Origin: Octopus vulgaris
Taxonomy: Eukaryota
Length of the DNA: 64,000 bases
Reading direction: 5' to 3'
Assembly (NCBI GenBank): GCA_951406725.2
Contig: OX597820.1
Span: forward strand, 11,718,001-11,782,000
In this document: piece after piece, positions 17,531 through 62,164 of the stretch
Numbering within the stretch: position 1 is the first letter of the stretch
How the letters are laid out: each line of letters begins with the position of its first letter
Position numbers and translations under genes: made by a program
The notes under the pieces: model-generated
The model's input: the letters and a program-made list of their open reading frames with translations, nothing else
Told to the model about the DNA's origin: nothing
Database searches by the model: none

Positions 17531-18139
17531 ATCTATCTGTCTGTCTGTCTGTCTATCCCCCACACACATACATACATGTAAGTAATAAAGTGAAAGTCAA
17601 GTATTGCATCAGATTCTATTCTTTCTTTTTGTAAAATCATGCCGGCATGTGCACAAATAGTTTCTTTCCAAGAGATTATATTTAAGAAGGTCGAGATATG
17701 GGAAAGGAAATCCGAAGAAGACGACGACAACGTATGTAATTTGTATATATAATATATGTGTGCGTGTGTGTGTGTAACGGAAACTGTTTATTTGCGAGAA
17801 ATTGCTCACTATCTCCAATTTCTGAGCTGCCAAGCGAGATGTTTGAATATACGGTGTGGCCTCTTGACTGTTATGTCTAGCAGAACGAGCGATTGTGTAA
17901 TGCAAGCTTGGGCAACCGTTTCTGAGAGAGCTACTGAAAAAAGCAATTCAAGCTAATTTCTCATTAGGTGTGCCTCTGAGAAACACCCGCAGTTCATAAC
18001 CGATGTCTCTCTATCGTTAACCACAAACTCGATATATATATTTGTTGGAATGTTTAAATGACTAATGATATGAAAACTTGGTCTGAAAACAAACACATAC
18101 ACACATATATGTATGTATATACACGTACGTGTGTGTGTA

Positions 18140-18371
18140 TATTTCGTTGTTGGATTTCGTTTGCAAGATTCTTTATTTGAATTCGTGTGTTGAAGCATAT
18201 TTTGTTGTGTCTGGGGGGAGTAATTTTCTTTTTTTTTTTTTGTGCCTTATAATGTGACTCACCCACCGGTAAAATTTCCACAAATTTCTTATTTTTATTT
18301 TCCTAAAATTTTCATTGCGTCTAGCAACCTTTTCAATAGTCTTGACTATTGAATAAGTTGCAAGACGCAAC
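18140..18371 (-). mobile_element. Putative PLE pLTR fragment with inverted 5' duplication
   Basis: Homologous to 41234-41387; ends in a 27-bp hairpin (18315-18370) abutting a microsatellite; carries a hammerhead-like motif. Confidence 0.65.
18301..18343 (-). ncRNA. Candidate minimal hammerhead ribozyme, U3-A8 core variant
   Basis: CUA-UUGAAAA-G-GUUGC(UAGAC)GCAAU-GAAA-AU-UU^-UAG; C3/G8 replaced by U3/A8; only 3 bp of stem I visible. Confidence 0.55.
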
Positions 18372-18372
18372 T

Positions 18373-19815
<1,443 letters not shown>

Positions 19816-19828
19816 AGAGAGAGAGAGA

Positions 19829-38108: not shown

Positions 38109-38638
38109 ATTTCTTTACTACCCACAAGGGGCTAAACACAGAGGGGACAAACAAGGACAGACAGACGGATTAAGTCGATTACATCGACTCCAGTGCGTAA
38201 CTGGTACTTAATTTATCGACCCCGAAAGGATGAAAGGCAAAGTCGACCTCGGTGGAATTTGAACCCAGAACGTAAAGACAGACGAAATACCTATTTCTTT
38301 ATTAGCCACAAGGGGCTAAACACAGAGAGGACAAACAAGGACAGACAGACGGATTAAGTCGATTACATCGACCCCAGTGCGTAACTGGTACCTAATTTAT
38401 CGACCCCCGAGAGGATGAAAGGCAAAGTCGACCTCGGTGGAATTTGAACCCAGAACGTAAAGACAGACGAAATACCTATTTCTTTATTAGCCACAAGGGG
38501 CTAAACACAGAGAGGACAAACAAGGACAGACAGACGGATTAAGTCGATTACATCGACCCCAGTGCGTAACTGGTACTTAATTTATCGACCCCCGAAAGGA
38601 TGAAAGGCAAAGTCGACCTCGGCGGAATTTGAACCCAT
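38109..38638 (-). mobile_element. SINE family B headless trimer (about 184-bp unit) in (AAT)n
   Basis: Three near-identical tandem bodies; (AAT)n on both sides. Confidence 0.92.
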
Positions 38639-40596: not shown

Positions 40597-41000
40597 GGCG
40601 CTGGAGTGGCTGTGTGGTAGGTAGCTTGCTTGCTTACCAACCACATCGTTCCGGGTTCAGTCCAACTGCGTGGCACCTTGGGCAAGTGTCTTCTACTATA
40701 GCCTCGGGTCGACCAAACCCTTGTGAGTTGATTTGGTAGACGGAAACTGAAAGAAGCCCGTCGTATATATGTATATGTATATATATATATCTGTGTGTGT
40801 GTTTGTGTGTCTATGCCCTCCCAACATCGCTTGACAACCGATGCTGGTGTGTTTACGTCCCCGTCACTTAGCGGTTCGGCAAAAGAGACCGATAGAATAA
40901 GTACTAGGCTTACAAAGAATAAGTCCTGGGGTCGATTTGCTCGACTATAGGCGGTGCTCCAGCATGGCCGCAGTCAAATGACTGGAACATGTAAAAGATA
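40597..41000 (+). mobile_element. SINE family A
   Basis: Near-consensus full-length copy. Confidence 0.92.
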
Positions 41001-41233
41001 AGCTAAGGTGAATTTGTTGCTTTGGGTGTCTGGTATGTTATAAGGCCCGGAGAACTTCATTTAAAAGACATATATTCGTTTATAAAGGGTAAAGGATGGG
41101 ATAATCCTCAAAAGTAATATTTTCCCCAACATATTTGTAATGTACGTACGTTATCAAAACGTATGAGGAAACAAGAAACGTGTGAATTATCCGAAACTCT
41201 TTTCACCCATTCCCGAAGACAATTTCCACAATA

Positions 41234-41387
41234 TTTCGTTTTTGGATTTGGTTTGCAAGATTCTTTATATGAGTTCGTGTGTTGAAGCATATTTTAGGAA
41301 AATAAAAATTAAAAAGTGGAAATTTTACCGGTGAGTGTGTTACATTATAAGGCACAAACAGAAGATGACTCTCCCCAGAAACAACAG
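41234..41387 (-). mobile_element. 5'-inverted retroposed copy of the 18140-18343 element, 13-bp TSD
   Basis: AATTTCCACAATA at 41221-41233 and 41388-41400; 41234-41295 colinear with 18142-18203; 41291-41387 is the inverse of about 18203-18309. Confidence 0.85.
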
Positions 41388-41508
41388 AATTTCCACAATA
41401 AATACCGTGATAATCATAGTCTATACCATCTGAAGCATATTTGTTGAAAATTTCATTAAAAAAATATAAATTTCCCCCAGAAAAGTTATGAGGAAATAAA
41501 GTCGGGGT

Positions 41509-41664
41509 CACTAGCGTAGCTAGAGTGTGCCGCCCAGAGTGACCCTTTTGTTCCCCCCATGGACTCCTTAAAAAAACCCACATATTGCCTACAGCTGACC
41601 CAAAAGTATTGCCCCTTTAAAAGTGCCGCCCGGGGCGGACCGCTCCTAACTAGCTACGCTAGTG
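41509..41664. mobile_element. hAT-like MITE
   Basis: 15-bp TIR CACTAGCGTAGCTAG/CTAGCTACGCTAGTG; 8-bp TSD-like GTCGGGGT/GTCGGGAC. Confidence 0.8.
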
Positions 41665-41669
41665 GTCGG

Positions 41670-41958
41670 GACTTATTCTATCAGTTCCTTTTGCCAAGTC
41701 GCTAAGTTACGGGGACGTGAACACACCAGCATCGGTTGTGAAGCGATGGTGAGGGAGGGAAACAAACGTAGATACACAAACACACATATATTTACGACAG
41801 GCTTCTTTCAGTTTCCGTCTACCAAATCCATTCACAAGGCTTTGGTCGGCCCAAGGCTATAGTAAAAGACACTTGTCCAAGATGTCACGCTGTGGGACTG
41901 AACCCGGGACCATGTGGTTGGTAAGCAAGGTATTTACCACACAGCCACTCCTGCGCCT
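41670..41958 (-). mobile_element. SINE family A, 3' end missing
   Basis: Reverse complement of family A. Confidence 0.88.
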
Positions 41959-44892: not shown

Positions 44893-45158
44893 AAATAGCC
44901 AAGTAATTTGCTTAGCTCAGATCAGCTCTGGCTGAGCAAACATGTGACCGAAGGCGCTCCAGCCGTGACCTTCCTGTCGTTTTAAAGATAGAACGTGATT
45001 TGAAGGAGGTCTGACTGTTATTTGGCAAAATAGCCAAGTAATTTGCTTAGCTCAGATCAGCTCTGGCCGAGCAAACATGTGACCGAAGGCGCTCCAGCCG
45101 TGACCTTCCTGTCGTTTTAAAGACAGAACGTGATTTGAAGGAGTTCTGACTGTTATTT
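44893..45158. repeat. 135-bp tandem duplication of a family E repeat segment
   Basis: AAATAGCCAAGTAATTTGCTTAGCTCAGATC... at 44893 and 45028, few mismatches. Confidence 0.93.
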
Positions 45159-51270: not shown

Positions 51271-51526
51271 GTGCTTTTTATGTGGCACCAGCACGAGTAC
51301 CTTTTATGTGACACCAGCATGGGTGCTTTTTACATGGCACCAGCATGGGTGCTTTTTACGTGGAACCAGCACGGGTGGTTTTTACATGGCACCAATATGG
51401 GTGGTTTTATGTGTCTCCAGCATGGTTGCTTTTATGTGGCTCCAGCATGGTCGCCTTTTCTGTGGCTCCAGCATGGGTGCTATTTACGTGGCACCAGCAA
51501 CAGTGCTTTTTATGTGGCACCAGCAC
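51271..51526. repeat. 26-bp minisatellite x10 inside a family C element (51110-51530)
   Basis: GTGCTTTTTATGTGGCACCAGCATGG head-to-tail with no spacers. Confidence 0.92.
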
Positions 51527-60397: not shown

Positions 60398-60966
60398 AAG
60401 GCAGTGAGCTGGCAGAAACGTTAGTATGCCTGGTGAAATGCGTAGCCGTATTTCGTCTGCCGTTACATTCTGAGTTCGAATTCTGCCGAGGTCGATTTTG
60501 CCTTTCATCCTTTCGGGGTCGATATAATCGACTTAATCCGTTTGTCTGTCCTTGTTTGTCCTCTCTGTGTTTAGCCCCTTGTGGGTAGTAAAGAAATAGG
60601 TATTTCGTCTGCAGTTACGTTCTGAGTTCAAATTCCACCGCGGTCGACTTTGGCTTTCATCCTTTCTGGGTTGATAAATTAAGTACCAGTTACGTACTGG
60701 GGTCGATGTAATCGACTTAATCCATTTGTCTGTCCTTGTTTGTCCTCTCTATGTTTAGCCCCTTGTGGGTAGTAAAGAAATAGGTATTTCATCTGCCGTT
60801 ACGTTCTGAGTTCAAATTCTGCCGAGGTCGAATTTATCTTTCATCCTTTCGGGGTCTATAAATTAAGTACCAGTTACGCACTGGGATCGATGTAATCAAC
60901 TTAATCCGTTTGTCTGTCCTTGTTTGTCCCCTCTATGTTTAGCCCCTTGTGGGTAGTAAAGAAATA
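60398..60966 (+). mobile_element. SINE family B trimer (one head, three bodies) with TSD
   Basis: Units restart at about 60600 and 60784; GGTGGAGAT.T.TGTGTGT at 60378-60396 and 60967-60985. Confidence 0.9.
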
Positions 60967-62164
60967 GGTGGAGATCTGTGTGTGTGTGTAACTTGGCTGT
61001 TCAGAAGAATGTGATCTGTTGTAGTCATAGTAGAAGAGACAAAGAGATGACACGTTATGTTGGTGAGTTAGCTGTAGAGTTTGATAATCTTAATACAGCT
61101 TATTTAGCAGGACATCAGATCAGCAGCTGCAGCAGTAGTGGCTTATGAATATTGCAAAAGATCTGCTTTGTTATTCTTTGTTGTTGTTTTGTCAAAGATT
61201 CTATTTGATCAAAAGTATTATCATCAAAGAACCATAAGTGTTCTACATCAAAAAAAAAAAAAATAGTTTCACAAACCCAGTTTGCATCAGTTCTTAGAGC
61301 AGGGGAAAAATAGATATTCTAGATACTCTGGCAATAATATCTGCTATGGAACTAGCATTCTGTCTGGCGAAAGATTTTGTCAATCACACACTTAACAGCA
61401 GAACACTGGAATTAAGCACTCACCATTTTCGATGACATAGAAGCCACACTGTTTTTCAAAATAATCACCTTGGGCCCTATGTACAATGTTGGGCCTCTCA
61501 TAAGCTAATTTTTTTTTAAACGTTTTGTCTGAAATTGGGGTGCATCTAATATACCCATGTGTCTTTTACGCCATCAAATATGGTACTAAACAATTCCAGA
61601 GGGCTGGAGGAGATATTTGCCATTAATATTCATGTCTGCCTGTCTTAAATCTAAACAGTAAATAATGTACACTCTAAAAGAATTAGAGCTTTTAGCTTTT
61701 GATTTACAGGTAAATTGACTGAAAAGTTAGGGCAAAATCAGACAAAATGCCTTGTGGTATTCGTTCCAATTTACCATGTTTTGAATTCAAATCCTATCAA
61801 AATTGACTTTAAAATTACATCTACCCTGGGGTGGTTGCTAGCATTCAGATTACTCTGTCAGATGTAATGTTTGTTGGGTGGGGGCTAATGTTTCCAATCT
61901 TGTAGCTTCAAGATTTTGATGATTTGATTGCTTATTTTCAGAATGACATTGTAGGGTAGGTGTGAGAGGCTGAATCTGACCAGTTTTAACATAAAACAGG
62001 GAGAATATTTGGGCCTGGTATGGCTGGTTTAAATGATAAAGGGTCAAAGTATCAGTCAAGTACTGGGTACTACCCTCTCTCCCTCAACTGTCCCATTTTG
62101 GCTGTTCTGTTGGTTTAAAAGTGGGACAGCTGAGAGAGCAATAGTATTTGCTAGTCACTATACA

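What the first reader, a model, noticed from the sequence alone, without database searches (positions are those of the whole stretch)
41221..41400. Retroposed copy whose 5' inversion ends at the predicted ribozyme cleavage site
Seen: a 154-bp copy of the 18140-18343 element between perfect 13-bp direct repeats (AATTTCCACAATA). Its 5' about 95 bp is inverted relative to the 18-kb copy, with essentially no loss at the outer breakpoint. The inner junction lies in a 5-nt microhomology (ATTTT, 41291-41295) that overlaps the predicted cleavage point GAAAAUUU^UAGGAAAA. Established: twin priming produces this geometry, the inner junction marking how far reverse transcription reached. Inference: the template RNA began at the hammerhead cut, a genomic footprint suggesting the U3-A8 ribozyme was active in vivo and that a roughly 160-nt cleaved RNA was itself mobilised. 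One copy cannot exclude coincidence driven by the microhomology.
Basis: partly seen in the sequence, partly recalled or inferred. Interest (0 to 1): 0.75.

Follow-up and report, generated by a model that had tools for sequence, protein, structure and literature searches.

The report
Penelope stubs end at RNA cap
This 154-base insert is a real, inverted stub of an abundant Penelope-type jumping gene, but its sister copies mostly run past the predicted ribozyme cut and stop 44 bases earlier, usually beside an extra G that likely marks the capped start of the RNA, while only a weak excess near the cut may reflect occasional self-cleavage.

Summary
The geometry is real: 13-bp TSD, 154-bp insert, opposed arms. 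It is a stub of a high-copy Penelope-like element whose long copies carry an RT plus C-terminal GIY-YIG ORF. The inversion is family-typical, not L1 twin priming: 142 of 203 copies have an inverted arm, its outer end is fixed near +100 (125 of 142), and it usually duplicates the other arm. The base before -44 is G in 24 of 35 (element has C): likely the copied RNA cap. In this copy the microhomology is probably 3 nt, not 5. A broad 2-3-fold excess at 0..+10 survives a microhomology null (P 0.0005-0.002), so about 5-10% cleaved templates, or stalling at the ribozyme, remain possible. The scan noted the cap pattern before in four other genomes.

The parts
41221..41233 (+). Left target-site duplication (13 bp; last 2-3 bases shared with the element end)
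   Evidence: family TSD-like lengths peak at 12 (31 of 68 non-microsatellite cases)
41232..41293 (-). Direct arm: only the family 'tail', from about +96 to the outer RT start at +158 (positions count from the predicted cut)
41291..41390 (+). Inverted arm, from at most -4 and at least -1 to the inner, family-fixed RT start near +98/+100
41291..41295 (.). Inner junction ATTTT; likely 3-nt microhomology (41291-41293); predicted hammerhead cut between 41294 and 41295
   Evidence: site +95: G 169 of 182
41388..41400 (+). Right target-site duplication (first 3 bases shared with the element)
18140..18347 (-). Second copy in the window: direct arm from -42 to +158
   Evidence: annotation
18303..18339 (-). 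Minimal hammerhead motif: 3-bp stem I, U3-A8 core, extra G before stem II, 5-bp stem II, two-base palindromic stem III, U at position 17; predicted cut between 18306 and 18305
   Evidence: read from the sequence against the description in PMC4209133; no Rfam hammerhead match
18317..18322 (-). AGACGC, a DPE-like motif at +28 to +33 from the inferred transcription start (-44), in the loop of stem II
   Evidence: sequence; Penelope DPE RGACGTGY in PMC2377424; the +28 spacing rule is recalled
18338..18371 (+). Short inverted arm of the 18-kb copy (-42 to about -8), followed by a 1.4-kb microsatellite

Best explanation
The insert is a doubly truncated copy of the terminal repeat of an endonuclease-bearing Penelope-like retrotransposon, likely made when both nicked target strands primed reverse transcription at two fixed internal sites of the element's RNA and the two cDNAs were joined through a short homology. 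Shown: one arm ends at +158, the other near +100, 12-13-bp duplications flank them, both arms of an insertion share subfamily variants, and arm 5' ends pile up at -44 with an extra G. Inferred: the usual template is the capped, uncut transcript from an internal Pol II promoter (start at -44, DPE-like motif at +28), so the hammerhead sits in the first 45 nt of the RNA; short stubs are abundant because the RT starts lie only about 145 and 200 nt from the cap; ends at -43..-31 are cap-reaching cDNAs trimmed to a homology in the AGTC/GACT near-palindrome. In the 41-kb copy both cDNAs stopped early and were joined in an A/T run that overlaps the cut; it most likely came from an uncut RNA, with a real but smaller chance that it is one of a minority of cleaved templates.
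For: Parent ORF with RT motifs, CxxxxCxxC linker and GIY-YIG; tail runs on into the 5' part of the unit in L308 and L309. 203 independent copies: inverted arm in 142, outer end +88..+108 in 125 of 142; arms duplicated by more than 10 nt in 103 of 118. 133 of 321 arm ends in -45..-31, 35 at -44; G before -44 in 24 of 35 against 24 of 143 at other ends, P 1.5e-11. Arm concordance at diagnostic sites: 66 of 72, 78 of 82, 93 of 97. Literature: same architecture (PMC8557442 passages); two internal RT starts and uncut RNA as dominant substrate in vitro (PMC11167929); promoter and DPE inside the repeat (PMC2377424); extra G as cap mark in L1 (PMC11702581 passages).
Against: No RNA 5' end was mapped, so 'cap' rests on the G alone; 11 of 35 ends at -44 lack it. 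Ends are 2-3-fold enriched at 0..+10 and the null simulations do not reproduce this; position 0 ranks first, narrowly, among -30..+70 in the homology-weighted profile; 4 of 118 insertions have both arms ending in 0..+14 (Fisher P 0.04). RVT_1 scores below Pfam's cut-off (E 0.008). Whether one RNA or two templates the arms is open.
Confidence: 0.82

Rival explanations
1. Mixed templates: most RNAs are capped and uncut, but about 5-10% were cut by the hammerhead, and copies like this one record the cleaved 5' end. This adds to the best explanation rather than replacing it.
For: 0..+10: 28 ends against 10.0-14.4 expected; fold 2.83 against 0.99-1.16 in nulls with microhomology, insertions and mutation, P 0.0005-0.002; simulated 5-10% cleaved gives 1.7-2.7. 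Targeted set: weighted ends peak at 0 and +1 (6.3, 7.5) over -1..-4 (2.2-4.5). Genome-wide, the 10-nt window at the cut holds about twice the ends of a control window (hand calculation).
Against: The excess is broad, not sharp: apparent ends 9, 1, 1, 4, 9, 5, 5, 8, 8, 4 from -7 to +2; 14 of 37 junctions must pass the cut, 14 are compatible, 9 lie downstream. The -4..+1 window of this copy is only borderline over the null (2.96 against 1.6, P 0.04-0.06) and cleavage models over-predict it (3.8-6.2). None of 64 copies without inversion ends at 0 (before removal of duplicates). Stem I itself offers the TAG/CTA homology used by 3 of the 4 direct ends at 0. U17 and a two-base stem III predict weak activity.
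Confidence: 0.35
2. The excess near the cut comes from RT stalling at the 3' edge of the folded or protein-bound ribozyme and from slippage in the A-rich tract, with no cleavage.
For: Most excess ends lie at +2..+10 (22 of 28) and some at -7..-10, the base of stem II; ends on both sides of the bond.
Against: The A-rich stretch at about +63..+73 shows no bump; the simulated pipeline artefact is small.
Confidence: 0.45
3. One reading: a roughly 160-nt cleaved RNA is the normal mobilised unit and inversions arise by L1-type twin priming.
For: This copy's arms abut and its junction overlaps the cut.
Against: 200 of 235 arms pass the cut; 20% cleaved templates would give a 12-fold peak at -4..+1 against 3.0 seen; inverted arm start is fixed and arms overlap by tens of bases, unlike the 1-10 bp in L1.
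Confidence: 0.02

Closest known systems
Insertion units of endonuclease-positive Penelope-like elements (pLTR, adjacent inverted 5'-truncated copy, one-sided tail; Craig et al. 2021, PMC8557442), Neptune-type by the linker motif
   Same: RT plus C-terminal GIY-YIG ORF with CX4CxxC linker, repeat with hammerhead, inverted tail-less arm at the 5' end, partial tandems, some (TA)n targets (32 of 203 flanks)
   Different: Tail about 57 nt rather than 30-40; most copies are 150-350-bp stubs; a sharp 5' stop with an extra G was not seen in the passages read
PAc Poseidon element of Anolis (Frangieh et al. 2024, PMC11167929)
   Same: Two internal RT starts downstream of the hammerhead delimiting the tail; both target strands extended; uncut RNA the main substrate
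   Different: There the RT starts are about 85-92 nt past the cut inside the ORF and the core is C3-G8; here about +100 and +158 with a U3-A8 core
Minimal PLE hammerheads, U3-A8 variant (Cervera and de la Pena 2014, PMC4209133)
   Same: U3-A8, extra base between 9 and 10.1, G10.1-C11.1, palindromic 15.2-16.2, needs a dimer
   Different: Stem I only 3 bp, stem II 5 bp, U at position 17; activity untested
L1 twin priming and cap-G at full-length L1 5' junctions (passages in PMC11702581)
   Same: Both target ends primed, cDNAs joined by microhomology, TSD kept, extra G at template 5' end
   Different: L1 second priming is at variable sites with 1-10-bp gaps or overlaps and a poly(A) end; here the site is fixed, arms duplicate each other and there is no poly(A)

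Membership tests
EN+ Penelope-like element | Single ORF with RT followed by C-terminal GIY-YIG endonuclease | tested here: met
   L301:5017-7011 (665 aa open) holds RT motifs and the nuclease; GIY-YIG E 1.7e-6 above cut-off in L302, RVT_1 E 0.008 below cut-off in L301
EN+ Penelope-like element | Terminal repeat formed by partial tandems, tail continuing into the next unit | tested here: met
   L308 and L309: tail runs on into sequence that leads to the ORF; 2 of 203 stubs also run on
EN+ Penelope-like element | Inverted 5'-truncated copy lacking the tail | tested here: met
   142 of 203 copies; outer end +95..+102 in 111 of 142; also in long copies L302, L307, L310
EN+ Penelope-like element | Hammerhead motif in the repeat | tested here: met
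   Motif read from sequence matches the published minimal form; no Rfam match
EN+ Penelope-like element | RT phylogeny groups with PLE/telomerase RTs | not tested
   no tree built; no named PLE proteins at hand
Neptune clade | CX2-5CxxC linker between RT and EN | tested here: met
   CTNDNCMVC in L301, L302, L215; motif named in PMC8557442; Nematis also has a linker, so the clade is not settled
Minimal hammerhead ribozyme | Self-cleavage after position 17 | not testable with these tools
   folding gives stem II only, stem I is not in the minimum-energy fold; genomic footprint inconclusive
Minimal hammerhead ribozyme | Core conserved beyond its flanks | tested here: inconclusive
   core 0.965, stems 0.95-0.96, downstream 0.946 identity; no common non-CpG variant in the core, but copies are young and neutral
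L1-type twin priming | Second primer at a variable site, arms abutting within about 10 bp | tested here: not met
   fixed site; 103 of 118 overlap by more than 10 nt, 7 abut, 8 leave a gap
L1-type twin priming | Target-site duplication and microhomology at the inner junction | tested here: met
   TSD mode 12 bp; 49 of 72 insertion-free junctions have 2 or more shared bases (119 copies)
Non-LTR retrozyme or independent mini-element | Unit bounded by ribozyme cuts, in tandem arrays | tested here: not met
   ends at -44 and +158, not at the cut; copies are fragments of a coding element

The most novel reading that the evidence does not exclude
The insertions record two RNA populations of one Penelope-like element: a capped, uncut majority starting 44 nt before the cut, and a 5-10% minority that a U3-A8, U17 minimal hammerhead cut in the germ line and that the element's RT still copied, the 41-kb insert being one of them. 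This would be genomic evidence that a metazoan PLE minimal hammerhead decaps its own transcript in vivo.
Probability: 0.3. Interest if true: 0.62.

Novelty: new member of a known kind. Interest (0 to 1): 0.38.

Why it matters
What the hammerhead of Penelope-like elements does in cells is open: it is weak in vitro and dispensable for insertion in the one reconstituted system. Stub copies give a sequence-only map of the RNA: start, cap and both RT starts. They place the ribozyme 45 nt behind the cap, where a cut would remove the cap, and they bound the cleaved share of templates at roughly a tenth. That turns the question into one precise assay. The single copy flagged is not in itself evidence of cleavage.

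Tried and rejected
Rfam: no match at gathering score in the window; none to a hammerhead family at E up to 10 for 18100-18380. RNA evidence: no RNA holder listed on record; only contigs were available, which cannot show starts, so nothing is drawn from them. The first 30 loci were picked for full length and the 30 loci for the inverted arm; neither set was counted. Rejected: independent 204-bp element (it continues into an ORF); subfamily explanation for the G at -45 (no shared sequence before it); random internal priming. The first pipeline simulation over-weighted insertion-type joins and was replaced; one search held one duplicate too many (204 copies), corrected. Paper searches for a cap-G or ribozyme-cut footprint in PLE insertions and for octopus Penelope/Neptune gave no paper describing it; Lunse et al. 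2017 is not held, subscription journals and Repbase were not searched, and supplements were not read, so absence from print is not shown. No earlier scan note matched by sequence.

Full report
Observation. The direct repeats, the 154-bp insert and the two opposed arms are present as described. Positions below count from the predicted cut (0 = first base after it; window 41295 in this copy). The direct arm covers about +96..+158 on the minus strand and the inverted arm at most -4..+98 on the plus strand. The claimed 5-nt homology depends on an A at +95 that the 18-kb copy has; 169 of 182 direct arms and this insertion's other arm have G, and only 3 of 81 insertions with G in the inverted arm have A in the direct arm. 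The homology is therefore likely 3 nt and the inverted arm holds position -1. One untemplated A would give the same letters; 47 of 119 junctions carry extra bases.

What the element is. The genome has 2.8 Gb; a search with the 18-kb copy found 2843 candidates and one exact 35-mer of the 3' end occurs 1348 times. Long copies run upstream through a CA-rich 3' region into an ORF with RT motifs, a CxxxxCxxC linker and a GIY-YIG domain. In L308 and L309 the tail continues into the 5' part of the next unit. This is an endonuclease-bearing Penelope-like element, Neptune-type by its linker; no tree was built. That the host is an octopus is my recall from its repeats, not a tool result. The ribozyme motif fits the published minimal form including the U3-A8 variant (PMC4209133, first two of four parts read); Rfam does not detect it.

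Sample. Copies were chosen only by an exact match in the 3' tail, in listing order: 97 of the first 100 of 1348 hits (three already held as full-length-biased loci were left out), 55 of 192 and 60 of 122, giving 211 anchors. Eight were dropped: seven duplicates (second hit in L067, L166, L167, L176-L178, L184) and the second anchor of L100, leaving 203. The sample favours young, tailed copies on the first chromosomes.

Architecture. 142 of 203 copies have an inverted arm; its outer end is +88..+108 in 125. Among 118 clean cases the arms overlap by more than 10 nt in 103, abut in 7 and leave a gap in 8. Both arms share subfamily variants (66 of 72, 78 of 82, 93 of 97), so they derive from one source element. 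This is the known Penelope unit with a tail-less inverted copy (PMC8557442, passages) and fits two internal RT starts with extension of both target strands (PMC11167929, first two of four parts read). It differs from L1 twin priming, where arms abut within 1-10 bp (PMC11702581, passages). The neat abutting of the 41-kb copy is the minority case.

Of 321 arms (203 direct, 118 inverted), 36 run beyond -46, 133 end in -45..-31, 21 in -30..-11, 10 in -10..-5, 13 in -4..+1, 22 in +2..+10, 58 in +11..+70 and 28 further 3'. Exactly -44: 35 (81-117-fold over background); exactly 0: 5 (4-6-fold). 200 of 235 arms that reach +10 go on to -5 or further. The base before -44 is G in 24 of 35 although the element has C; other ends show G in 24 of 143; the sequence before the G is unrelated between copies. 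An extra G marks the cap at full-length L1 junctions. A DPE-like AGACGC lies at +28..+33 from -44; Penelope has an internal promoter with a DPE (PMC2377424, passages and section 15; the spacing rule is recalled). I infer a capped start at -44. No RNA data tested this.

What remains for cleavage. Ends at 0..+10 number 28 against 10.0-14.4 expected (P 2e-6 to 9e-4, windows chosen after seeing the data). In simulations through the same pipeline, with homology-weighted joins, real inserted bases and mutation, nulls give 0.99-1.16-fold for 0..+10 against 2.83 seen (P 0.0005, 0.002) and about 1.6 for -4..+1 against 2.96 (P 0.058, 0.037). Cleaved shares of 5% and 10% give 1.7 and 2.7 for 0..+10 but 3.8 and 6.2 for -4..+1; 20% gives 12 and is excluded. 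A pattern enriching for ends in -7..+2 had 278 hits; of 90 read, 34 were full length and 56 ended in the window; after 2 with same-strand sequence before them were set aside the ends were spread 9, 1, 1, 4, 9, 5, 5, 8, 8, 4. Of 37 with a partner arm, 14 must pass the cut, 14 are compatible and 9 lie downstream; the weighted profile is highest at 0 and +1, and the design under-counts +2 and beyond. A control pattern for +40..+49 had 254 hits, 14 of 30 read being true ends; my hand normalisation, with an estimated flank pass rate, puts the cut window about 2-fold higher. Stem I supplies a TAG/CTA homology used by 3 of the 4 direct ends at 0, and none of 64 uninverted copies ends at 0. So there is a low, broad footprint at the ribozyme that may be cleavage or stalling.

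Mechanism. Shown: fixed 3' ends at about +100 and +158, duplications of about 12 bp, shared source, stop at -44 with G. Inferred: the nuclease nicks both strands, each 3' end primes at one internal site, the cDNAs mostly run to the cap and are joined by short homology or with a few added bases. The 41-kb copy is an early-stopping case joined in the A/T palindrome at the cut.

Novelty. Family type, architecture and ribozyme variant are known. I found no paper on cap-G ends or a cut-site footprint in PLE insertions (limits under Tried and rejected). Four unreviewed scan notes report the cap pattern in other genomes; I had noted it, before seeing them, and did not test their data. Two further papers were opened without bearing on the result: bioRxiv 10.64898/2026.07.22.740005 (first part) and PMC9977147 (passages); PMC6765202 passages gave background. 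Verdict: observation confirmed, strong interpretation refuted, weak form open; interest 0.38.

Noticed in passing
family position +99 (window 18196-18198, minus strand, approximately): An ATG lies at the inner RT start, so the tail may be the start of the ORF, as the 34-bp repeat is in Drosophila Penelope; the frame is closed right after the tail in L308 and L309.
   Followed up: partly
L100; L150, L186, L207, L210: Some insertions carry the tail on both arms or on the arm opposite a long copy, and L301's ORF-bearing arm ends at the inner site, so either RT start can give either arm.
   Followed up: partly
window 41499-41674: Small element with 25-nt inverted arms (84%) 126 nt apart, MITE-like, inside a second repeat.
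   Followed up: no
window 40822-40902 and 41671-41751: 81-nt inverted pair (88%) flanking the locus, probably two opposed copies of a SINE-like repeat.
   Followed up: no
window 41431-41473: 43-nt stretch 74% like 41283-41325, across the inner junction (E 0.04); chance or an old fragment.
   Followed up: no
window 18373-19816: 1.4-kb AT/AC microsatellite directly after the short inverted arm of the 18-kb copy; the rest of that arm is not found beyond it.
   Followed up: partly
window 38109-38637, 60515-60969, 44893-45158, 51271-51525: Tandem arrays of 185, 184, 135 and 26 nt units; the first two look like tandem SINE copies.
   Followed up: no
L165-L167, L175-L178, L183-L184: Groups of segmentally duplicated insertions with the same flanks.
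   Followed up: yes
L096, L101, L092: Junctions with repeated short pieces of the -44..-30 region in alternating orientation, suggesting several template jumps at the cap end.
   Followed up: no
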